From an uncultured virus (IMG/VR IMGVR_UViG_3300025261_000058) (taxonomy: Duplodnaviria > Heunggongvirae > Uroviricota > Caudoviricetes), in the IMG/VR virus record IMGVR_UViG_3300025261_000058: 64,000 nucleotides of DNA; one strand, given 5' to 3'. The notes under the pieces were generated by a model that had not been told where the DNA came from, did not search any database, and worked only from the letters and a program-made list of their open reading frames with translations. A program made the position numbers and the translations under genes. Below are positions 28,857 to 59,556 of the stretch, in pieces. Every line of letters begins with the position of its first letter. The stretch's first letter is position 1.

Positions 28857-30245
28857 TTATCCTGCGAGCGCGGCCCACTGAGCGAGGCCGCCACCAATCA
28901 AATGCGAGAACGCGCGAGAGAGCGAGTCGATCTGATCATCAAAACTGCCGTTCGGGAACATGCGCATTTCGTCGATCAATGCAGCGTTCCAACTGCCGCG
29001 CAGCATGACGACGTTGCCAACGTTGACCTGTGCTGCGAATGGCTCGGCTCGCGTGACCTTGTCGCCCGATTCAGGGGACGTCGTCACCGGATAGCCGACG
29101 AGCTCGCGCGTCAGGTAAAGAACCTGCGTTTTGCCTGCTTGTCCCGGGTCTTGCGGGATGCTGATCTTCGTCGACACGCCATCTAGCGAGGCGGTGTTGA
29201 CCATCGCCGCGTCCCGCTCATCGGGGCCGACGCGCAGCCTGACCATGTCGCCGATGATGAAGCGTCCATCCGGCAGGCGGCCAATCTTGCCGCCGGCAGT
29301 AAAGTCGCCATCCGTCGTGCTCGCCAAGTCCCAGCCGCGCACCCATTGGATATGTCCATAGGGCAGTGCGTCGATGGTCTGGATTTGGTCGGGCTTGAAG
29401 ATGCCGCCTTCAGCCGGCGCCGGTCGTTGCTGATACTGCCCAGCAAACGTATAGGGCGATGCCGCTTCCATGCGGCGCAATTCTTCGACTGAATGCTTCT
29501 CAGGCCAGAGCGCTGTGCCGTCATCCTGCAGGGCAGGCAGACAGACGCGTTCCCACTTCTCGCCGTTGCCGCCGTTCAGCAGCCACCCGGCAAGGTCGCT
29601 CTCATGCAACCTCTGCATGATGAGGATGATCGGCGTGTCGGGGCTGTTCTTCCGTGATTCAAACGTGTTCTGAAACCAGTCGATCACGTTCTGACGCATT
29701 ACGTCCGACCGGGCTTCATCTGCCTTGTGCGGATCGTCGATCAGAAGGGCGCCGCCGAAACCGGGGCGATGCTTGCCAGCGCCGTAACCGGTGATCGTGC
29801 CTCCAGCGCCCACGGCGTACATGATGCCGCCAGCCGTCGTGCGCCATTCGTCCTTGGCCTGGCTGTCTTCGCGCAGGCCAACAGACGGAAAGATTGCCTT
29901 GTACTCGGCTTCCTGCACCAGCCCGCGGACGTCCCATGAGGACGCTGCAGCGAGGCGCGATGAATACGACGTGTAAATGAATTCGCTGTCAGGCGCGTGG
30001 CCAAGCGACCAGCCGACGAAATTCTTGACGATCTCCGTCTTGGAGTAGCGCGGCGGGATGTTGATGATGAGGCGCTTGCACTCACCACGAAACACCCGCA
30101 TTAGCGCTTCGCAGACCGTCGCATGGTGCTGTGCCTGCTGCCACGTGTATCCGCGGCGGTTGACGAACATCCAGCGCGTGAACCAGAAGAGGTCGGCCAT
30201 CGACAGCGAACGGTAAGAGCGCCGTTCCGTATCGCTGAATTCCAT
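28857..30245 (-). CDS. terL: Terminase large subunit
   Basis: NIPPRYSKT, GG.ITG.G, IDDP.K, MQRLH..DL.G, QYQQ.P, WDLA, DDQID. Confidence 0.95.
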   Translation of the reverse strand: MEFSDTERRSYRSLSMADLFWFTRWMFVNRRGYTWQQAQHHATVCEALMRVFRGECKRLIINIPPRYSKTEIVKNFVGWSLGHAPDSEFIYTSYSSRLAAASSWDVRGLVQEAEYKAIFPSVGLREDSQAKDEWRTTAGGIMYAVGAGGTITGYGAGKHRPGFGGALLIDDPHKADEARSDVMRQNVIDWFQNTFESRKNSPDTPIILIMQRLHESDLAGWLLNGGNGEKWERVCLPALQDDGTALWPEKHSVEELRRMEAASPYTFAGQYQQRPAPAEGGIFKPDQIQTIDALPYGHIQWVRGWDLASTTDGDFTAGGKIGRLPDGRFIIGDMVRLRVGPDERDAAMVNTASLDGVSTKISIPQDPGQAGKTQVLYLTRELVGYPVTTSPESGDKVTRAEPFAAQVNVGNVVMLRGSWNAALIDEMRMFPNGSFDDQIDSLSRAFSHLIGGGLAQWAALAG

Positions 30246-30986: not shown

Positions 30987-32171
30987 TCATGCTGCCGCCT
31001 CAAACATCTCAGGCACCACCGTATTGCGCGCTACCTCGCCATATTGAACGTGGTAGGTAATGGCCTGTGCGGAGCGCTCCGAGACGTAGCCGTGACGGGC
31101 AGAGTGAGCGTCATTTGCCGCCAGCGTTCTATGCTGCACGACTGTAACGCCCGTATGCTCTTTCTCGTCTTTGTGGTGTTGGTGACCTGTGTGGATCACG
31201 CGCTTGGTCGTCGCGCCCCACATTGCCGGAAATTTCGCGGCAAAGAGAAGGGGCATGTTTTCTTTCCTGGTCAGGTGTCCATGATGGAAGCCCAGCATGT
31301 TTGTGCCATGCTGCCACGCGTAGTAGGGCGACTCGGAGTCGATCACAGTCACCCGCGGCTCGTTCTCGTATAGCGCGCGGAACATAGCTCGAAGCCACAC
31401 ACTGGAACTGAGGTCGTGATTGCCTTCCGCCATCAGTACGACAACCTTATCGTGCCGCTCCAGAGCGAAATCAATGATCCGGCGCAGGACACGAATGGCC
31501 ACGCCGACGATCTTCGAGTACCGGCCGTCCTGGTCCAAAATGTTCTGGTGCAAGGGCGTCACTGGCAACATGCCGCCGGAACCGTCCGAATGAAGGAAGT
31601 CGCCGAGCTGTGCGACGAATGCTGTACTTGCCTTCGGAGCGGCCTCGATCATGTGTGCGAACGCGGATACCAGAGTGCGCTCGGCAATCTTCAAATCCCA
31701 GTCCGCGCCGGTTTCCTTACCCCATGCCAGCATTCCCAGGTGGTAATCGGTGAATGTGTACAGATTGCACAGCGCGTCACTCGTGCCCTTGGGCATCGGC
31801 GCCGGCCTCATCCGCGGCAGCGTCTCAGCCATCGCGGCACATGCCTCTCGGAAGATTTCTTCCTGGCGCGATTTGTCAGCTTTCGCCTTTACCCATTGTC
31901 CGGTCGGCTGGCCATCGGCATTGAAGTACGTCGAGACGCCGTCAGCGGTAAAGCCATCGGGCACCGAGTGGACGAAATGATGCTCCGGGCTATACCCCAT
32001 CTTCGCCGCACGCTTCTCCAGATTACCCAGAGCGCGAATCAGAACGCTGTGATGCAGCCCGAGAGCCTTGGCTGCGAGCGTGGGCTTGCCGTGCTTCTCG
32101 ACGGCTTCGAGAAAGGAAATTTCCCGGGCATCGGCAAATTCTCGCAAACGCGGGTCAAATTGTCGTGCCAC
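30987..32171 (-). CDS. HTH plus calcineurin-like metallophosphoesterase
   Basis: TDYHLG, GDFLHSD, GNHD, HHGH, GHQH motifs. Confidence 0.82.
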   Translation of the reverse strand: MARQFDPRLREFADAREISFLEAVEKHGKPTLAAKALGLHHSVLIRALGNLEKRAAKMGYSPEHHFVHSVPDGFTADGVSTYFNADGQPTGQWVKAKADKSRQEEIFREACAAMAETLPRMRPAPMPKGTSDALCNLYTFTDYHLGMLAWGKETGADWDLKIAERTLVSAFAHMIEAAPKASTAFVAQLGDFLHSDGSGGMLPVTPLHQNILDQDGRYSKIVGVAIRVLRRIIDFALERHDKVVVLMAEGNHDLSSSVWLRAMFRALYENEPRVTVIDSESPYYAWQHGTNMLGFHHGHLTRKENMPLLFAAKFPAMWGATTKRVIHTGHQHHKDEKEHTGVTVVQHRTLAANDAHSARHGYVSERSAQAITYHVQYGEVARNTVVPEMFEAAA

Positions 32172-32180
32172 GGTTTCCCC

Positions 32181-32396
32181 TTAAGACGTCAATTTTGGTT
32201 TGAACTCAATGCACCAGTCGTCCGGATTGACTTCCGGCCACTCAGCGCTTGATACGCCGGTGGCCGGGTCATAGACGAACACTGGCGGGTAGCGCCGGCA
32301 GCGCATGCCTTCGGTCCGGCTGCAATGGACAGCTCGACATTCCTTGCAAATCTCCGTGCGCTCAGCGACGACTTTGACTGTCTTGCGAGCTGCCAT
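32181..32396 (-). CDS. Small Cys-rich phage protein
   Basis: C..C...CRRYPP...WP.V..DDWC.EF. Confidence 0.7.
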   Translation of the reverse strand: MAARKTVKVVAERTEICKECRAVHCSRTEGMRCRRYPPVFVYDPATGVSSAEWPEVNPDDWCIEFKPKLTS

Positions 32397-32410
32397 CGGA
32401 GATCCAGAAT

Positions 32411-32439
32411 AAAAAAGCCAGCAGCCTTTCGGCGCCGGC
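32411..32439 (-). terminator. Intrinsic terminator closing the ncRNA tract
   Basis: GCCGGC-GCC-GAAA-GGC-T-GCTGGC plus T6. Confidence 0.7.
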
Positions 32440-32868
32440 AGACGTCGAAGGGGGAGTCGACGCGAGGAGAATTGGATGAAAGCTACTTTGTCGCAGACCG
32501 CGTGACCCGCAGGTGGCTATCGCCAGGCGCGTCGCTAATTTCACCTTCGTGGCGGCGCACTCCCGGAGCAGTCCCAAATCCGGCCGGATCTACCCACCGC
32601 GTTGTCGCAGAAGGCTATGGCTTGCTTTGTCCGCGCTGAATGCGCCTGCATGAAGGGCCTCGTTTCGTGAGGCTCTACGGCGATTGACCAGTTCGCACCG
32701 AACGAGGTTAAGAACTGCCTTGATAGCTCATGCGAGCCCAATCGGGCGGCAGACACCCGCTTGTCCGGTCTCTGCTCCCGGCATGTTCTTGCCGCTTACG
32801 ATTATGCGGCGTCTGTGTTGGTGCTTTCCTCGTGCCACTAAGGGGCAAACAGCCCAGACCGATTTCGT

Positions 32869-32966
32869 TGAGAGTGGCCGGCGCTGATCTCCGGCACGTC
32901 CGGTTCTCTTGCACTTCCCCGGCTCCGGGGCAGGGTTGGGCGCATCAGCCTGCGCATTCACTCTCA
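32869..32966 (-). ncRNA. C4-type antisense RNA (P1 c4 / P4 CI-like)
   Basis: TGAGAGTG AAT GCGC-AGGCTGAT-GCGC ... GCCGG-AGATCAGCG-CCGGC CACTCTCA matches the recalled C4 consensus scaffold. Confidence 0.8.
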
Positions 32967-33168
32967 CGGCTGACGACTGCGCGCAGCATAAGGTTCGCTT
33001 ACCGGCGCAAACAGATGATCAATCTGTCGCAACCGTGCCCTGCACCACCGCAATCGTCATGCGTGAAAGCGATATCGACATAACGATATCGAACCAATTT
33101 GCTCTCACGACTGACGCCTTGTTGGCCCACCCCGGTAGCTCCCGAAGCCAAAGCGTCATGCGCGAAAG
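32961..33168 (-). ncRNA. Two tandem same-scaffold hairpin RNAs (32961-33069, 33102-33168)
   Basis: Both CTTTCRCG-CA-TGACG...CGTCA-GY-CGTGAGAG, with unrelated inner domains. Confidence 0.6.
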
Positions 33169-33468
33169 GGCTCCGCCGCCCGTATCAAACTGCTACGCCG
33201 ACCGTAGTTGGCGGCGAAGCGGGGATCATGGCTTGGGAAGATTGTCCCTGCGCGGACGAATGTCCATGTCACACCTCAATCAAGTTTATCCATCGGATCG
33301 CAACACTGCCGGCCGTCGATCAACTCTCGCGCGCACCACCAACAGCGAACGGCTCGCAAACGTCGATCAGCCACTCCGAGTAGCCGGTAAGGGTGTGGGC
33401 GCATGCGAGGTGCCACGTTGCGGCCACCATCGGGCCAAAGGTGAGGATTGACTCCCAACCATCGAAAG

Positions 33469-34389
33469 TCATGTCGCCTCTCGCTCCACGAATTCCCATC
33501 TGTATCCGTAAGCGCTTTTCCTGCGCCCGGCGCACACATGGCTCAGGTATGAAGACGTAGCCTTTGATATTCCCGAGTCTTTCAGCCAGATCACCGCATG
33601 CACCAGCGATTCAAACACCTTGCCGGTATCAACGATTCTGACGGGCTTTGCCCTTGCTGCGAATGATGCTGCAGCGGCTTGGGCCCTAGCTTCTGGTGAT
33701 CGAGCGTTCATCGCCGCCGATAACTTCGCCCTGTGATCATCTGACAGGCGCTTGCCCATGCGGGCTGCGGACAACTTAGCGCGCGTCTCTGCAGTCACAA
33801 CCCGGTTCTTCAGCCGTTCAGACCTCCTGCGCCGCTCATCGGGAGATTGACCAAACAGTGTGCTCTTGGCGGACAAGATTGCTTTGGTTTCGGCAGATAG
33901 AGGTTTCCCCCGCCTTGCTTGCGCGGACCTCGCTATCGCCTCGGTCGTCGGCGACTTTCCTTTGCGAATGGCAGATGCTTTCTCCCGCCACTCCGGAGTA
34001 TCCCGGATCGCCCTCATAGCCGCCCTGGCAGCCGCGGACATCTTTCTGCCAGTCAAGGCAGCAGAAATCTTGTGGCATGTCGCCTCAGGGCGTTTCATGC
34101 CGAGATGACTGCCCGCAGTCTTGCAGATGTTGTAGCCCGGCACCAAGCAATCAATAGCTAGCTGCTCATACATGAGCAAATCAGGCTTTCCGCAGATCAA
34201 CAGGATCTCAAACCGCAACCCTGACTCGCCATGCTTTTTAAATGCCGATTGCAGATGCGGGTTATGGTGCGACCCTGCTCGAAGGTGATGAAGATGGACA
34301 TGCCACCTTCTTCTGATATTAACCGCCGAGCCTACGTATTGCTTCCCAGACGCGCTGGTAATGGCATAAATGCCAGCAACGTTATTCAT
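33469..34389 (-). CDS. GIY-YIG homing endonuclease with NUMOD3-type repeats
   Basis: GIYAI...YVGSA..I.RRW..H, E, YN; repeated G.K.S.ET.AK.S. Confidence 0.92.
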   Translation of the reverse strand: MNNVAGIYAITSASGKQYVGSAVNIRRRWHVHLHHLRAGSHHNPHLQSAFKKHGESGLRFEILLICGKPDLLMYEQLAIDCLVPGYNICKTAGSHLGMKRPEATCHKISAALTGRKMSAAARAAMRAIRDTPEWREKASAIRKGKSPTTEAIARSAQARRGKPLSAETKAILSAKSTLFGQSPDERRRRSERLKNRVVTAETRAKLSAARMGKRLSDDHRAKLSAAMNARSPEARAQAAAASFAARAKPVRIVDTGKVFESLVHAVIWLKDSGISKATSSYLSHVCAGRRKSAYGYRWEFVEREAT

Positions 34390-34510
34390 TCTTTACCTTG
34401 ACTAGAGGTAGACCATTTGAGGGGCGCGGAAGATTGGCGGTCAAACCAACCGTGTCGGGAGCTACCCTATCCGCGCTCTGCAATTATATCTGCTTCACAG
34501 CCTTCCTCAA
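34390..34510 (-). promoter_or_regulatory. Internal promoter and structured 5' leader of the GIY-YIG gene
   Basis: TTGAGG-16bp-TATAAT (34510-34483); GCGCGGA/TCCGCGC closes two hairpins. Confidence 0.6.
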
Positions 34511-34630
34511 TTCATCCAGCCGGGCGATCATCGAAGCCCTCAGCGCCGGATCGATGTTGCGCATGCGCTCGAGGTCCAGTTCCAGGCTGTCGATTAGGTC
34601 TTGTGCGTTCATATCGAATTCTCGCTGGCG

Positions 34631-34879
34631 TCAGTCGACCAGCTCGACCCTCATTGCAGAGGGAGTGGGGCACGGGACGGCCGACACAGCGCCGGCCCCA
34701 GCGGGGAGATCAAATAGGGATTCGGCACGTTTGCGCGCTTCGCTCCATTCCTTACGGACAGTCAGCGTTCGGCGCTTCTCGGCGCGTTTCTCTGCGTTGG
34801 CTTGAGCCGCCTGGTTTTCCTCAAGAATGCGCTCGGGATTCCCGTACATTCGGGATTCGAGGGGAGAGGGAAATCGCAT
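34631..34879 (-). CDS. Hypothetical protein, first late gene
   Basis: Directly after tR'; YG.P..IL motif. Confidence 0.5.
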   Translation of the reverse strand: MRFPSPLESRMYGNPERILEENQAAQANAEKRAEKRRTLTVRKEWSEARKRAESLFDLPAGAGAVSAVPCPTPSAMRVELVD

Positions 34880-34889
34880 GGCGGAGCCG

Positions 34890-34930
34890 GAAATGAAAAA
34901 GCCCCGCGAGCTTTTAGGCTGGCAGGGCTT
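34890..34930 (-). terminator. tR'-like terminator
   Basis: AAGCCCTGC..AGC-loop-GCT.GCGGGGCTT plus TTTTCATTT. Confidence 0.7.
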
Positions 34931-35039
34931 CGGAAATTCTGAGACGAGTTTACCCACTCGCGGGGATTTGGGGTGAGCCTTTCGGCTCTACTGCACAGCC
35001 TTCCGACACAGAAGGCCGACAATCAAGCAGTACGGGCAC

Positions 35040-35067
35040 AGTATATACCAGATGCGGTGTTGTGCAA
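35040..35067 (-). promoter_or_regulatory. Late promoter (pR'-like)
   Basis: TTGCAC-16bp-TATACT downstream of Q-like gene, ~140 nt before a terminator. Confidence 0.65.
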
Positions 35068-35098
35068 CAACTATTTTCTAGATTTTGTTGTTTACTGG

Positions 35099-35362
35099 TC
35101 AATACAAATTTTCGGAATACAACGTGCCGCCGTTCGAATCGTCGCCGCCGACGCGACGGATGATCTGGCCTGCGGCCTCTGCGACCTTCCATGCATCGGT
35201 GCGACTCAGGAACGCACCTTTGTTGTCGATAAACCCCTGATCAACCGGATCGCCTTCGGTATGGAGCTTGTGCATGAAGGCATCCCAATGGCGAATGCCA
35301 AGAACGACCTCACCGGTGAAGCGCTTTCGGTTGGCGGCGCAGACAATGCGATGAATTGTCAT
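35099..35362 (-). CDS. Conserved phage hypothetical protein
   Basis: IVCAA...G.RH...QGF.D..G.FL.R..A..VA...L.SE.LY. Confidence 0.75.
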   Translation of the reverse strand: MTIHRIVCAANRKRFTGEVVLGIRHWDAFMHKLHTEGDPVDQGFIDNKGAFLSRTDAWKVAEAAGQIIRRVGGDDSNGGTLYSENLY

Positions 35363-35583
35363 GACGTTGTCCCCTTCAGTACACGCAGGCGTGATTCGAG
35401 CTGCTCTATTTCTGCTTGGTGGTCGCGCTCTATACGCGCATGCTCGATAGGAATTTGAGCGTTGATAGACCTAACCAGTGCTTCAGCCTCGTGTACCGAT
35501 AGGTTATAGCTCGCAGTGGTGTCCACGTCATAACCTGACCATTGGTCTCGGATTTTTGTGGGTATCGAAATACGAATGCTCAT
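35359..35583 (-). CDS. Hypothetical protein
   Basis: ATGA-coupled on both sides. Confidence 0.6.
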   Translation of the reverse strand: MSIRISIPTKIRDQWSGYDVDTTASYNLSVHEAEALVRSINAQIPIEHARIERDHQAEIEQLESRLRVLKGTTS

Positions 35584-36089
35584 GCCGCCTCCCGCATCAG
35601 CGAACTTACCTTGCTACCTGTCGCCGCGATAGACGCCATCATGCAAGTCATCGTCTTGTCGAAGTTCTTCTGATGCTTCGACCACGATTCGACCGGCAGG
35701 CCGGCGGCCAAAGCGCGCTCGCTATCGGAGTGCCTCTTGACACCTGAGCCGTCACATTTCGGGCACTTGTCGTAACGCGCGCCGTTGAGGATCAGACCTG
35801 CACCATTGCACGGGACGCAGTTGTCGAGCACGAATTCTTTGATGCAAGCCGTTGCCAGTTTCTGCGCGTAGGTCAGTTCAACACCGAGCGAGCATTTCGC
35901 CTTGTGCGCCAAAAGATGAATTGCCCGCTTTCCCGCCGCGGCGTCCGAGCCAAACTTGAACCGGAATAGGGCGGCGCCGAGCGGGTCAGAAAGGCCCATC
36001 GCTGTGAGTCGATCGACCGATTTCTCTTCCCGCTCATTCCACGCGAGATTCGAACTTCTGACGTCACTTGCATACTTGTCTTTGAACAT
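35580..36089 (-). CDS. Late antiterminator Q-like protein
   Basis: C..C.G.G...C.KC.GSG zinc finger; position upstream of pR'. Confidence 0.7.
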   Translation of the reverse strand: MFKDKYASDVRSSNLAWNEREEKSVDRLTAMGLSDPLGAALFRFKFGSDAAAGKRAIHLLAHKAKCSLGVELTYAQKLATACIKEFVLDNCVPCNGAGLILNGARYDKCPKCDGSGVKRHSDSERALAAGLPVESWSKHQKNFDKTMTCMMASIAATGSKVSSLMREAA

Positions 36090-36408
36090 CACGAACCCCG
36101 CACGTGGAAACAAAATGTTGTTGATTAAACACATGAAACTCTGTTATGAATTCTAGCAGAAAAGCGCTTCGTAGTCCTTATTTGAAGCGCTGTCAATCAC
36201 CTGTTTTGCGATTATTCTTCGAGCCCTGTAACGCCGTACATGTACATCGGCTCTGCCGGCTTCTCTACCTCTGTAACTGGCGCATCCCGATACTTCCTCC
36301 GCTTAGTCGGCGCAACGTAGCGGGGACGGTGGAGGAGGTACACAGCAGCGAAGACTGCGCAGTTGAATACGCCTAGGCCGTAGAAGCCGACGCAGAGGAT
36401 TACGGTTT

Positions 36409-37428: not shown

Positions 37429-38214
37429 TCATGCGGCTTCCGCCTTCTTGGCGAGATACTTCCTAACGATCTCTTCCTCGCTGAGCCCCTTGCGCCGGAA
37501 GTGATAGAAGGATGAAATCGGTATGCCGGCGTCGCGCATCCATTCGGTGGTTATCTTTGATACGCCATCGACGACTATCGACTTCTTCCAGAATCCATCC
37601 GGGTTCGTTTCAAAAACTTCGTCTAGCGGCAAGCCGCGCCTTAGGCGCTGAATGAACGTGGTGTAAGGGATGCCGTACTGATCGCACCATTCTGCGACGC
37701 ATTTCCGTTCGCCGCGGTATTCAACGATGTTGCTTGTTGACTTGTTCCAATGCTGCTCCCTTTTGGTCGCCCAGCGGCAATTACCGGGCTCGTAGTTGCC
37801 ATTTACGTCATCGCGCTCGATGGTCATGCCCGGTGGTTTCTCTCCCATATCGGCCAAGAAGTTCTCGAAAGAATGCCGCCACCGTTCGCACACCGCTATC
37901 CCTCGGCCGCCGTATCGAGCGTAGCGCGACGCCTTCGGGTTTGTGCAGCGCGTAATCATTCGCGCCCACACGGCATACTCCGGGGTTTTGCTTAGTCCAT
38001 GAGTACGCGCTCGATCGCCAGTTGCCTCAAAGGCAAGGCATCCGCAACTCTTCGATTTTCCCGCAGCGACATTAGGTATCGATATTTCCTTCGTAACCCC
38101 GCAATCGCACGCAAATATCCCGTAACGCGTATTGGAGCGTCGTTCAGCGATCTCCTCTTTAAAGGTCAACCGCCCGAACCTGTCATTAGGCTGCATAACG
38201 TGTTTCGGTTTCAC
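37429..38214 (-). CDS. HNH-type (His-Me finger) homing endonuclease-like protein
   Basis: FGRLT, C.CDCG, SCGC, W..M..RC...YGGRGI.VC.RW, ER.D.NG.Y.P.NCRWAT; start uncertain. Confidence 0.8.
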   Translation of the reverse strand: MKPKHVMQPNDRFGRLTFKEEIAERRSNTRYGIFACDCGVTKEISIPNVAAGKSKSCGCLAFEATGDRARTHGLSKTPEYAVWARMITRCTNPKASRYARYGGRGIAVCERWRHSFENFLADMGEKPPGMTIERDDVNGNYEPGNCRWATKREQHWNKSTSNIVEYRGERKCVAEWCDQYGIPYTTFIQRLRRGLPLDEVFETNPDGFWKKSIVVDGVSKITTEWMRDAGIPISSFYHFRRKGLSEEEIVRKYLAKKAEAA

Positions 38215-38812
38215 GTTCTCTCCTTGCCTTTGCACGTCTCGCCTTTTTCCGGAAAATCCGCTTGAGGCGAGTCAGATAATCAATGTCAAACTTCCGTACA
38301 GACTGATCAACCTCAAGCGCCTCGATTGCTTCGAGGCCGAATTTTTCGATCATTCCCTTGCGCATCTCAACGGTGTTCGACCCTAGGTACCTATTGCACT
38401 TAACGCATTGTGCGGCGCAGTTTTTCAGGTTGAACCGGTGATGTGCGGCGCTTCCGGTGCTGCGGTAATGCCCGCAATCGACAGCGCCGCCGAACGCTTC
38501 CCTCGACGGGATGCCGCAGCTAATGCAGGGCAACCCGTAGTCGCGCTCTCGCACGTAGGCGTTAAAGGCGGCTTGCGCCTCCTTCAAATGCGCCCCGCGA
38601 GTCTTGGTTTTTTCGAGCGCAACTCGAATCGACTTCTTCTCCTCGCGCTTGGCCTTGGCCGCTTGCTTTGCCTTGGCCGTCTCGGTCAGAGCTATTGCGC
38701 AAGGGACGCTGCAAGCCTTGGACATGCTTGAAATAGGGGCAAAACTCGCGCCACAATTTCGGCAGCGTTTGGGCTTTAGTTTCTTCTTGACAGGAAGGGA
38801 AGAGCGGATCAT
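38186..38812 (-). CDS. ninG: NinG/Rap recombination endonuclease
   Basis: AQ.AFN.YVR.RD...PCISCG, D.GHYRS.G.A, N...QC..CN. Confidence 0.9.
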   Translation of the reverse strand: MIRSSLPVKKKLKPKRCRNCGASFAPISSMSKACSVPCAIALTETAKAKQAAKAKREEKKSIRVALEKTKTRGAHLKEAQAAFNAYVRERDYGLPCISCGIPSREAFGGAVDCGHYRSTGSAAHHRFNLKNCAAQCVKCNRYLGSNTVEMRKGMIEKFGLEAIEALEVDQSVRKFDIDYLTRLKRIFRKKARRAKARRERETETRYAA

Positions 38813-44897: not shown

Positions 44898-45698
44898 TTA
44901 CTCCGTCCAGCCTTCGAGTACCGCTTTGAATTCGGTCCAGTTTCGAACAGACTTGGCAAGCGCGACAATTTCTTCGGGATCCATGCCGTTCGCGACCGCG
45001 CCCTTCATAAGGTTCATCGCTTGCGCTTCATTGACATAGATGCGGTTGCGAATGATGCCGCGAGCGTAATAGAGCTTGCGCATGGATTCCGGCATCGCGG
45101 CGTTGCGGCAGATGCCGCCGATCTTCGACCATGCAAGGTTGGCGGATTCGCTCGTCGCGTTCCCTTCACTGTTGAACTTGATGTATTGGCGCCCGGCGAT
45201 ATCGATGGCGTCCAATACTGCGATGAGACCAAACGTCTTGAGCAGTTTCCGAGCTGCGTTTTGTCCCGTTTCGTTCAGGTGGAAACCGGGAACCGTGTCG
45301 CTCCACGTTGCCTCAATCTGTTGCAGCGAATCCTCGTCGATCGCCTTCAGCCCGTCGCGCCACTGAAGCATCATTTCCAGTTGTTCGCGGCGCTCGTTCA
45401 GTTCCTCGAGCTGCTGACGCTGCTTGGCGACGACTGAATCATCTGACAGTAGGCGGTCAGACTTGCCGCTGTTGCAGTCAAAGCAGGAGGTGATGTAATT
45501 CATCATGTCGTCGTCGCCGCCCTGGCTGACAGGGTGGATATGGTCGACGTTCAGAACCACTTCAGGAGCGCACTTGCCGCAGTATTGGCATTTGAAGGAA
45601 TCGCGCTTGAAAACTTCGAAGCGAGTCTTTTTCCCAATAGCCTTGCGCTTTGTCGCCTTGCCACCATCAACTACTTTCAGTGCCTCGCCCATCATCAC
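44898..45698 (-). CDS. HNH endonuclease domain protein
   Basis: RFEVFKRD.F.CQYCG, VDHI.P...GG, N..T.C..CN.GK. Confidence 0.88.
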   Translation of the reverse strand: MMMGEALKVVDGGKATKRKAIGKKTRFEVFKRDSFKCQYCGKCAPEVVLNVDHIHPVSQGGDDDMMNYITSCFDCNSGKSDRLLSDDSVVAKQRQQLEELNERREQLEMMLQWRDGLKAIDEDSLQQIEATWSDTVPGFHLNETGQNAARKLLKTFGLIAVLDAIDIAGRQYIKFNSEGNATSESANLAWSKIGGICRNAAMPESMRKLYYARGIIRNRIYVNEAQAMNLMKGAVANGMDPEEIVALAKSVRNWTEFKAVLEGWTE

Positions 45699-57100: not shown

Positions 57101-57517
57101 ATGCAGACAAAGAATTGCCGCATCTCCCTGGAATGCAAGCCTATCGAAGCATTTACTCGGAACAAGGCTAGCTCTGTTGGATTCACGCGCGTATGCAAAT
57201 CTTGCACGAATGCGAAAAGTCGAGCTTACGCGAAGTCAAGACCTGAGAAAGTCAAAGAGAAGCGGTCGCAGAAGAAAGCATTGAATGCTGCTTTGAATCT
57301 CAGTTACCGGCAGCGATATCCCGAACGAATGATAGCGAACACCATTTGCAAGCGAGCTGTTGCAGAAGGGATAGTGAAAAGGCACCCATGTTGGGTATGT
57401 GGCGAAACAAAAGTCGAAGCTCACCATGCGGATTACAGCCAACCTCTCGATGTCGTATGGCTGTGCCGCCTTCATCATCGCCAAGCGCATGCACTAGCGC
57501 GGGAATTGGAGAAATAA
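57101..57517 (+). CDS. HNH-like zinc-binding protein
   Basis: CK.C; PC.VCG....AHH.DYS.PL.V.WLC..HH..H. Confidence 0.75.
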   Translation: MQTKNCRISLECKPIEAFTRNKASSVGFTRVCKSCTNAKSRAYAKSRPEKVKEKRSQKKALNAALNLSYRQRYPERMIANTICKRAVAEGIVKRHPCWVCGETKVEAHHADYSQPLDVVWLCRLHHRQAHALARELEK

Positions 57518-58121: not shown

Positions 58122-58783
58122 CGCACGATGAAATCATGGCAACAGCAAGCCATTACTCGGAAGTGGATGCGCAAGGCTACGTGCGGTTTTGCGAAGATGA
58201 TCTGATCAACTTCGCAGACGCCCTTCTCGCCCCCTCTAGCGCAGCCACTGTTAGCGATGCCGCGAGTGTGCTGAGCAATGAGCAGATCATCGAGCGCTGC
58301 AAAGCGGCTGGCATTAAGTGGATACCGCCCGAGTTGCCTGACGACTGCGATTATGAAATGGGCTTCCCCGGCTCGTTCGACATGGTAACCATGGACGAGA
58401 TGCGCGCGCTTCTCACCGCTGCCAGCGATCAGGCGTCGGGGCAGGCGGTGCCAAAAGGATGGAAGTTGGTCCCGATTGTGCCAACACGCGGGATGCCGGT
58501 AGCGGGTGGATTGGTCCCGCGCGGCGAACACCTTTTTCATCATCCTGGCGGTGGCGACGAGCGTATCGAAGTGATTGGCTTCGGGAAAGCCTGCGAAGTT
58601 TGGGCCGCCATGCTTGCCGCCGCCCCCTCTCCCGCCGTGCGCGAAGCCGGGGACGGCGTGACGCTGACGGATAGCGACATTCTCGTACTGTGGGACCAAA
58701 CCATGGCTCCGGACGACGATGAGAACCGTGAGCACAAACTGATCGTACGCTTCGCCCGCGCCCTTCTTAAGGAGGCCAAGTGA
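58118..58783 (+). CDS. Modular hypothetical protein
   Basis: VP.GWKLVP..PT..M...W.AMLAAAP; FARALL. Confidence 0.7.
   Translation: MTHDEIMATASHYSEVDAQGYVRFCEDDLINFADALLAPSSAATVSDAASVLSNEQIIERCKAAGIKWIPPELPDDCDYEMGFPGSFDMVTMDEMRALLTAASDQASGQAVPKGWKLVPIVPTRGMPVAGGLVPRGEHLFHHPGGGDERIEVIGFGKACEVWAAMLAAAPSPAVREAGDGVTLTDSDILVLWDQTMAPDDDENREHKLIVRFARALLKEAK
58235..58268 (+). repeat. 34-bp exact direct repeat, copy 2
   Basis: Identical to 49925-49958. Confidence 0.95.
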
Positions 58784-59556
58784 TGGACGCGCACCTCGCA
58801 GCATATTTCAGGAATCACCTAGCGTACGACGAGGTGACCGGTATAGCCACATGGCTTACAGGACGACGCGCCGGCGACGCTGTGGACGGCAGGACGCACA
58901 AGGGATACGTCTCTATCCACATCGCAGGTCATAACCGGCCGTTGCATCGAGTGATCTGGACAATGGTGACTGGTGAATCCCCGTCTTTGCAGATCGATCA
59001 TATCGATGGCGTGCGAGACAACAATCGAATGGATAACCTGAGACTGGCGAACAGCATCCAGAACAACCGGAATAAGTTGGCGTTCAGGTCCAACACCACG
59101 ACCGGCCTGAAAGGCGTTACCAAACGGATGGGTCGCTATTCCGCTCGAATCCATATCGGCCCGGAACTTCGACACCTCGGTACGTTTGCGACGATGGATG
59201 AAGCGGCGCATGCCTATAACAAGGCGGCGATTGCTGAGTTCGGCGAATTCGCAGTTCTCAACCCAATTGGCCTTGTCCAAGAAATAACCGGTCATGACCT
59301 GAAAATTGAGGTCGTGGGCGCAGACCAAGGAGCAATCATGTCGCGAGGGCATCACGAACTGCAGGTCTTCGCCTCGGAAGCTCAGCAACATGGCTTTGCT
59401 TTTTCGATGGATTCCCTTGAGCACGTATGGTTTCGCCCGATTCCGAACAAATACGATCCGAACAAGACATGTCGCTTTGTGCCTGCCGTGCCGGAATCGA
59501 GAGGATCATTCCCAGCCACTTATGTTCGCCTTCTACGCGAAGCGGGGAGCCGGTGA
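58780..59556 (+). CDS. HNH-AP2 endonuclease with C-terminal extension
   Basis: HRVIW, IDHIDG...NN...NLR, G.KGV, HLG.F....EAA.AY. Confidence 0.85.
   Translation: MMDAHLAAYFRNHLAYDEVTGIATWLTGRRAGDAVDGRTHKGYVSIHIAGHNRPLHRVIWTMVTGESPSLQIDHIDGVRDNNRMDNLRLANSIQNNRNKLAFRSNTTTGLKGVTKRMGRYSARIHIGPELRHLGTFATMDEAAHAYNKAAIAEFGEFAVLNPIGLVQEITGHDLKIEVVGADQGAIMSRGHHELQVFASEAQQHGFAFSMDSLEHVWFRPIPNKYDPNKTCRFVPAVPESRGSFPATYVRLLREAGSR

What the first reader, a model, noticed from the sequence alone, without database searches (positions are those of the whole stretch)
32961..33168. Tandem constant-scaffold, variable-cargo hairpin RNAs
Seen: two adjacent units share CUUUCRCG-CA-UGACG ... CGUCA-GY-CGUGAGAG (13 bp with the same 2x2 internal loop; the R change keeps pairing as A-U versus G-U). 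They enclose unrelated structured inserts of ~80 and ~37 nt and are separated by a perfect GATATCG/CGATATC hairpin. Inference: a repeat-plus-guide array in which a processing stem (RNase III-like) delivers different guides. One insert has a target in this genome; I found no target for the other.
Basis: partly seen in the sequence, partly recalled or inferred. Interest (0 to 1): 0.7.

Follow-up and report, generated by a model that had tools for sequence, protein, structure and literature searches.

The report
Phage RNase III stems, swappable cargo
Two repeated RNA hairpins in this phage's late transcript belong to a widespread family absent from Rfam, with a fixed base and a swappable top; the host enzyme RNase III likely cuts them to free small RNAs and a tRNA-shaped RNA, and the tops as a group show no sign of being base-pairing guides.

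Summary
The constant part is smaller than reported: ACG-CA-UG...CA-GY-CGU in a stem of about 20 bp. I found 215 such units (189 unrelated inserts) in phage and prophage loci, with strong covariation and no Rfam match. A published RNase III matrix picks one register in 160 of 188 units; stem positions my patterns did not fix agree. The predicted cuts would release 53- and 95-nt hairpins and leave a tRNA-shaped RNA with a 1-nt leader; its acceptor strand is the stem's own 3' arm. Near-identical phages swap inserts. The guide idea fails as a general rule: own-genome matches are at control level, and insert 1 and its 'target' occur without each other in relatives. That target is, however, the core of int-alpA-type leaders, so insert 1 may be antisense. 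No cleavage is shown. The scan noted similar RNase III stalks with swappable cargo on other DNA; I found no note with this core.

The parts
33102..33168 (-). Unit U1: stem with 2x2 CA/GU loop enclosing insert 1 (33153-33117); predicted cuts 33161|33160 and 33108|33107, 53-nt product
   Evidence: 51.5 bits, in the training set; score -28.7, best register
32961..33069 (-). Unit U2: stem with 2x2 CA/GC loop enclosing insert 2 (33054-32976); predicted cuts 33062|33061 and 32967|32966, 95-nt product
   Evidence: 60.9 bits, in the training set; score -21.3, best register
33062..33107 (-). Spacer between the predicted cuts (46 nt); holds the GAUAUCG/CGAUAUC hairpin (33090-33071) and is predicted to reclose as a 7-bp stem with a 2-nt 3' overhang
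   Evidence: z -2.64
32869..32965 (-). tRNA-shaped RNA: 7-bp acceptor-like stem (5' strand 32965-32959 is U2's 3' arm), D-like hairpin, variable middle, T-like arm; not called by ARAGORN or Rfam
   Evidence: acceptor pairing about 0 in the precursor; same arms with other middles in L365, L212
32540..32660 (-). Degenerate third unit (CA/GC loop kept, flanking pairs changed); the same slot holds another insert in relative G306/L365
   Evidence: (E 0.003); its RNase III score was not validly computed (index slip)
32411..32439 (-). Hairpin plus U6, likely the terminator closing the non-coding block
   Evidence: sequence and fold; not listed by the terminator scan
34400..34476 (-). int-alpA-type leader of the GIY-YIG gene; holds the 12-nt complement of insert 1 (34466-34455)
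   Evidence: shares the 15-nt core that Rfam RF02996 hits in 11 of 18 sampled loci; this copy itself is not scored by RF02996
33469..34389 (-). GIY-YIG homing endonuclease gene directly upstream of the non-coding block
   Evidence: phrog_314, E 9e-31
34483..34510 (-). Sigma-70-like promoter match (10 of 12) pointing towards leader, nuclease gene and units
   Evidence: 2 sites found, 1.4 expected by chance: weak
35580..36134 (-). Q-like antiterminator gene; places the block at the head of the late operon, before the phosphoesterase-like gene (30987-32171) and terminase (28857-30245)

Best explanation
The two units are copies of a conserved phage RNA stem that host RNase III likely cuts on both strands, which would chop the non-coding head of the late transcript into separate stem-closed RNAs. 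Shown: the stem, its covariation, its spread and the swapping of inserts. Inferred: cuts at CG|CAUG on the 5' arm and CAGYCG|U on the 3' arm; release of a 53-nt and a 95-nt hairpin and a 46-nt spacer; and, because U2's 3' arm is also the acceptor strand of the next module, that the tRNA-shaped RNA folds only after the cut, with a one-base leader that RNase P could trim. The shared arms likely also act as crossover points that let phages exchange cargo. For the cargo I favour folded RNAs recognised by shape (protein ligands or decoys) over base-pairing guides; this last step is the weakest (about 35%).
For: Family: 217 unique units in the fetched loci against 0-1 in shuffled loci; 215 kept, 189 insert clusters. 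93.8% of cells paired against 74.6% shuffled and 32-48% slid; 265 two-sided changes against 81. With only the 3' arm fixed, 29 of 30 loci had the 5' arm; with only the 5' arm fixed, 36 of 66 had a partner with 15 or more of 17 pairs, 28 of them CAGYCG. RNA strand: 313 G.U against 26 A.C cells; 49 of 49 nearby tRNAs on the same strand. RNase III: the pair matrix of PMC6212723 (Table S4) peaks at one register in 160 of 188 units, median -24.4, 120 of 188 above that paper's -25.5 line; the order of seven inner positions not fixed by my patterns ranks in the top 0.14% of 5040 orderings, with U.G and U-A at J and K, the UA/UG distal box of PMC1540722. Rfam tRNA hits in L564 and L517 start exactly at the G after CAGYCGU. 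Acceptor-like partner plus adjoining hairpin downstream in 29 of 160 units against 6.6 shuffled, loci selected for that module left out. Swaps: G306/L365 is 97% identical upstream but holds another insert; G001/L225 holds insert 1 in another context; 129 of 142 homologous insert hits sit inside a scaffold. Precedent: the mapped RNase III double cut between dicF and dicB encloses an RNA that begins like the same tRNA-shaped module.
Against: No cleavage or RNA end was observed; only assembled contigs were available. The units share ancestry, so 188 scores are not 188 tests; against best-of-14-register controls the median unit is matched by 14% of rethreaded stems and 2% of own-pair permutations. 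U1 scores -28.7, below the -25.5 line. The matrix is from E. coli, and mismatches at B and C are rare in it. The look-alike arm upstream of dicF is cut 6 bp outside the register my rule gives, and the model does not score it. rRNA leader and trailer strands were not top hits of the arm profiles in 4 rrn loci. Most units (131 of 160) show no tRNA-shaped partner by my test. Inserts are only modestly folded (median z -0.5). The core was fixed by my search patterns, so its invariance is partly built in.
Confidence: 0.68

Rival explanations
1. Repeat-plus-guide system: RNase III frees inserts that act as antisense guides; insert 1 binds the loop of int-alpA-type leaders in front of nuclease and replication genes of this or rival phages.
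For: Insert 1 displays GAGCUA in a loop, complementary to the UAGCUC loop of a core held by about 1800 IMG/VR stretches; 0.03% of 20000 shuffles hit that core (chosen after the fact); the core leads nuclease genes (18 of 34 ORFs scanned) or replication initiators (11 of 34); insert 1 is conserved in L225 with the loop unchanged.
Against: Own-genome matches of 12, 13 and 14 nt or more: 28.9, 7.9, 0% against 23.7, 8.4, 2.7% in other genomes and 20.9, 7.4, 1.3% shuffled (38 inserts); 3 of 101 in flanks. G001 has insert 1 but no exact 12-nt site in its draft genome, and its own int-alpA has a non-matching loop; G306 has the site but no antisense copy. The hairpin is near-palindromic, so sense and antisense differ by two bases, and sense copies occur in three other inserts. 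Targets in hosts or other phages were not tested broadly.
Confidence: 0.13
2. The stem is a binding site (for RNase III without cutting, or for another protein) that folds, protects or gates the next RNA rather than being cleaved.
For: The 2x2 loop is strongly preferred (28 of 36 unbiased partners), more than cleavage alone would seem to need; PMC1540722 describes substrates that bind but are not cut (passages).
Against: Loop variants, some more fully paired, occur in 8 of 36; A/A', D and J/K pairs fit the cleavage pattern; the tRNA-shaped RNA cannot pair its acceptor while the stem stands.
Confidence: 0.11
3. Selectively neutral remains of tRNA clusters, shuffled by recombination.
For: Many inserts hold tRNA-like scraps (11 of 189 with a T-loop motif); 154 of 215 inserts had no non-identical homolog in my loci.
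Against: Extensive compensatory change in the stem, and insert families recur in different contexts.
Confidence: 0.05
4. A DNA-level hairpin recombination site (attC-like) for cassette exchange.
For: Imperfect inverted repeat around variable DNA; an integrase gene is the best hit of the nearest upstream ORF in 6 of the loci scanned.
Against: The wobble-bearing strand is the transcribed one; most loci lie elsewhere, for example before terminase genes (11 loci); no excision joint appeared in laid contigs.
Confidence: 0.03

Closest known systems
RNase III double-cut stems of the Qin prophage dicBF operon (E. coli K-12; sites 1649182/1649251 and 1649454/1649584 in PMC6212723 supplements; 10.1101/2023.04.14.536235)
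   Same: Prophage transcript cut into small RNAs at stems; the dicF-dicB stem encloses an RNA starting like the same tRNA-shaped module; the upstream cut follows a CG step next to a mismatch.
   Different: There the stem encloses the tRNA-shaped RNA; here it overlaps its acceptor strand. My model does not score the DicF stems, and the look-alike 5' arm is cut 6 bp further out.
Phage T7 early and lambda N-leader RNase III sites; rRNA leader-trailer stems (T7 and lambda recalled, not read here)
   Same: Stem of about 20 bp with an internal loop that would punctuate a long transcript.
   Different: Here the stems flank non-coding cargo that is swapped between phages. The Pseudomonas 16S stem strands look similar by eye in reversed order but did not rank first in a profile scan. 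The lambda late leader gave no hit.
c4 / P4 CI antisense RNAs and CRISPR- or TIGR-type guide arrays (features recalled)
   Same: Structured small RNAs processed from a precursor; one insert is complementary to a leader loop.
   Different: No Rfam match, no enrichment of targets, mostly single units, no recurring effector gene.
int-alpA RNA motif (Rfam RF02996)
   Same: The 'target' leader shares the 15-nt core and a spacing of 80 nt to the start codon (median 76).
   Different: It is the putative target, not the units; the window copy is below the model's threshold.

Membership tests
RNase III substrate (E. coli rules) | Duplex of about 22 bp around the cut | tested here: met
   9 bp + 2x2 loop + 8-10 bp, covarying
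RNase III substrate (E. coli rules) | G-C/C-G pairs at A and A', A-U/U-A at D and D', UA/UG distal box | tested here: met
   A, A', D and largely D' were fixed by my patterns, J/K were not
RNase III substrate (E. coli rules) | Score at or above -25.5 in the PMC6212723 matrix | tested here: inconclusive
   U2 -21.3 met, U1 -28.7 not met; family 120 of 188
RNase III substrate (E. coli rules) | rnc-dependent double cut with 2-nt 3' overhangs | not testable with these tools
   only contigs, no raw reads
Guide array (CRISPR/TIGR-like) | Many tandem units | tested here: not met
   12 of 105 loci of 4 kb or more have 2 or more units; 30 of 35 genomes have one; highest seen 4 (L390)
Guide array (CRISPR/TIGR-like) | Guides match targets above chance | tested here: not met
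   own genomes only; host and foreign phage targets not surveyed
Guide array (CRISPR/TIGR-like) | Dedicated neighbouring effector gene | tested here: not met
   98 flanking ORFs, no single recurring family; 44 further ORFs not sent
c4 antisense RNA | Match to the Rfam models | tested here: not met
   no hit at gathering in the window or at E 10 in 32300-35700
tRNA (module 32965-32869) | Cloverleaf with anticodon arm and TTC T-loop, called by ARAGORN or Rfam | tested here: not met
   acceptor-like stem and two arms only
int-alpA (leader 34476-34400) | RF02996 score | tested here: not met
   core sequence and position shared

The most novel reading that the evidence does not exclude
Temperate phages carry a plug-in small-RNA system: one standard RNase III stem delivers a large, exchangeable library of RNAs, some of them trans-acting antisense RNAs; insert 1 would kiss the conserved loop of int-alpA-type leaders and so control homing-nuclease and replication-initiator genes of rival phages across taxa.
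Probability: 0.13. Interest if true: 0.82.

Novelty: new variant of a known kind. Interest (0 to 1): 0.52.

Why it matters
It defines a searchable RNA signal found in hundreds of phage contigs, including the cultured phages Bcep22 and CSP3, that marks unannotated small RNAs and predicts their ends to the base. The overlap of the stem with the acceptor strand of tRNAs and tRNA-shaped RNAs suggests an RNase III gate on tRNA folding, an arrangement my searches did not find described. At least 189 distinct enclosed RNAs become testable, and insert 1 offers a direct probe of the untested int-alpA leader.

Tried and rejected
Rfam on the window and on 20 homologous loci: no family for the stem. blastn of the block against named phages: one 32-nt hit. 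Pattern scans with the full window arms were mostly chance (211 loci, 6 new true units). Idea that the 5' arm is always the 3' end of an upstream tRNA-like body: no enrichment (29 of 184 against 28.7). Derivation from the 16S leader-trailer stem: suggestive by eye, not top-ranked. DicF upstream stem as direct homolog: cuts differ, no model score. Lambda late leader: no hit. Model search of genomes: 6 of 150 in the family of G001, 0 of 151 in the genus of G004, but only 27 candidates per genome were scored, so these are floors. A 16-mer of insert 1 in IMG/VR gave 13 loci, 12 of them outside any scaffold and likely chance. RNA libraries X11, X17, X24 (one study) hold pieces of related modules from other organisms, as contigs that show no strand or ends. 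L301 and L308 were dropped as likely chance before counting. Literature: nine searches plus int-alpA showed no description of this motif; the alignment files of PMC10690425 could not be read (3 of 6 held files searched), so it may be among those 10,006 candidates.

Full report
Setting. The window is nearly all of a 65,238-bp temperate lambdoid phage record (classed as provirus, 100% complete) with CI-like repressor, integrase, Q-like gene and several homing nucleases. The host is likely a Burkholderiales bacterium: 73% DNA identity to a Paraburkholderia prophage next to the block, terminase 60% like Bordetella phages. The finding lies in about 1 kb without credible genes (33468-32397) on the minus strand, downstream of the Q-like gene and a GIY-YIG gene, upstream of the packaging genes.

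Observation. The two units, arms, 2x2 loops, inserts of 37 and 79 nt and the spacer hairpin are as described. The minus strand folds with z -4.06, the plus strand with -2.03. No tRNA or Rfam family is called. U2 is stable in all folds; U1 is stable in local folds and displaced in two unrestricted folds that include downstream sequence.

Family. Scans with the full arms gave mostly chance hits, but a few had outer stems that changed on both sides. Fixing only the 3' arm plus downstream bases gave 30 loci, 29 with the 5' arm, and showed that the constant part is ACG-CA-UG ... CA-GY-CGU. In all, 217 unique units against 0-1 in shuffled loci; I dropped L301 and L308, leaving 215 in 189 insert clusters, enclosed length 39-125 nt, median 63. 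Inner pairs 1-7 are 87-99% paired against 45-85% expected (the filter demanded some of these). On 77 aligned units 93.8% of cells pair, with 265 two-sided changes. Fixing only the 5' arm, 36 of 66 unique hits had a partner with 15 or more of 17 pairs; 28 had CAGYCG and 8 had loop variants. G.U cells outnumber A.C cells 313 to 26 and all 49 tRNAs within 1 kb are on the same strand, so the fold is an RNA fold on the transcribed strand. Named carriers include Bcep22, CSP3, Paraburkholderia, Chromobacterium and Massilia. Of 98 flanking ORFs scanned (142 listed from 72 of 82 loci; 44 not sent), terminase genes follow in 11 loci and integrases precede in 6; no family is universal.

RNase III. I scored each unit with the pair counts of 85 E. 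coli double-cut sites (PMC6212723, Table S4). One register wins in 160 of 188 units (176 with the central 12 positions), median -24.4; 120 of 188 pass the paper's -25.5 line; U2 scores -21.3, U1 -28.7. That register puts the CG/CG pairs between the cuts, U-A at D, and U.G plus U-A at J and K, matching the UA/UG distal box of PMC1540722 (abstract). I had guessed this register beforehand from recalled rRNA cut sites. The units are related, so this is closer to one test than to 188. Fair controls: best-of-14 registers, 14% of rethreaded stems and 2% of own-pair permutations match the median unit; the order of the seven inner columns that my patterns did not fix ranks in the top 0.14% of 5040 orderings in 157 units. 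Against: the look-alike arm upstream of dicF is cut 6 bp outside this register and is not scored by my model; rRNA stem strands were not top profile hits. No cut was observed.

Coupling to tRNA-shaped RNAs. U2's 3' arm is also the 5' strand of a 7-bp acceptor-like stem that closes at 32876-32870. In the precursor this stem has pairing probability about 0; after the predicted cut it forms. The cut would leave one U before G+1. In L564 and L517 Rfam tRNA hits begin at exactly this G (ARAGORN did not call them). A downstream partner with adjoining hairpin occurs in 29 of 160 unselected units against 6.6 shuffled, so the coupling is real but not general. A hairpin usually ends 5-8 nt before the core (82 of 184 at one offset, background 12). 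The E. coli dicF-dicB double cut encloses an RNA that starts like this module, a precedent for RNase III release of such RNAs from prophage transcripts (also 10.1101/2023.04.14.536235, passages).

Cargo. Relative G306/L365 is 97% identical through the nuclease gene and upstream hairpins, then has one unit with another insert, the same tRNA-shaped arms with another middle, and another insert in the degenerate third slot. Insert 1 recurs with two changes in a Paraburkholderia prophage. Of 142 non-identical insert homologs, 129 lie in a scaffold and most of the rest in visibly degenerate ones. Insert 2 had no homolog beyond identical copies.

Guide test. Own-locus antisense matches of 12 nt or more: 3 of 101, against 2.2% and 2.0% in controls. 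Whole genomes (34 fetched plus the window; 38 inserts; sense and antisense pooled): no excess at 13 or 14 nt, slight at 12 nt. G001 has insert 1 without the exact site and its neighbouring int-alpA has another loop; G306 has the site without an antisense copy. Yet the site is not random: its 15-mer occurs in about 1800 IMG/VR stretches, is the core of int-alpA (RF02996 hits 11 of 18 sampled loci), lies a median 76 nt before an ORF, and leads nucleases or replication initiators. Insert 1 shows the complement in a loop; 0.03% of shuffles do (post hoc). The hairpin is near-palindromic and sense versions occur in inserts L462, L513 and L608, so a shared structural hairpin explains it as well. I give the antisense reading about 13%.

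Comparison and verdict. It works like known RNase III processing stems (Qin dicBF read here; T7, lambda N leader and rrn recalled). It is not a member of any Rfam family, and fails the array, target and effector tests for a guide system. Papers seen: PMC6212723 (passages, one section, supplement tables), PMC1540722 (passages, figure legends), 10.1101/2023.04.14.536235 (passages), PMC10690425 (passages, 3 of 6 supplements), PMC5737381 (passages; no 'alpA' in the main text; supplements not seen); all others as search listings only. Ten searches found no description of this motif, but unread supplements may hold it. Earlier scan notes describe similar stalks with swappable RNAs on other DNA; none found holds this core. 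Verdict: real, new variant of a known kind, interest 0.52.

Noticed in passing
window 34476-34400 (-): int-alpA-type leader before the GIY-YIG gene; by eye its second loop (UUUGACC) is complementary to bases near the ribosome-binding region.
   Followed up: partly
window 35070-34893 (-): By eye a promoter-like TTGCAC-16-TATACT followed by a folded leader and terminator, pR'/tR'-like; weak Rfam hits there were terminator matches only.
   Followed up: no
window 33420-33320 (-): A further long hairpin with CUCGCAUGCGC ... GUGCGCGCGAGAG arms, possibly a more degenerate unit; its 3' arm could pair with U1's 5' arm.
   Followed up: partly
window 32860-32670 (-): More hairpin modules between the tRNA-shaped RNA and the third unit; the CUCACGAAACGAG hairpin also precedes units in L014 and L086.
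   Followed up: no
L620 953-502 (-): Three units in a row after a Q-like gene, alternating with tRNA-shaped bodies; one body's 3' acceptor strand is the next unit's 5' arm.
   Followed up: partly
L225 1011-945 (-): int-alpA with a GGGGAUACCCC hairpin in place of GGGUAGCUCCC, suggesting loop variants of this family.
   Followed up: partly
L365:1396-1509 laid on runs X11, X17, X24: RNA libraries of one root study hold many contigs with the same D-like and T-like arms but different middles.
   Followed up: partly
window 33469-34389, 37429-38235, 44898-45698, 57101-57517, 58780-59556: Five homing-type nuclease genes in one temperate phage.
   Followed up: no
L223 (MAG labelled Mucilaginibacter) and L424: The same tRNA-derived insert in a Bacteroidota-labelled contig and in a phage locus; possible misbinning or wide host spread.
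   Followed up: no
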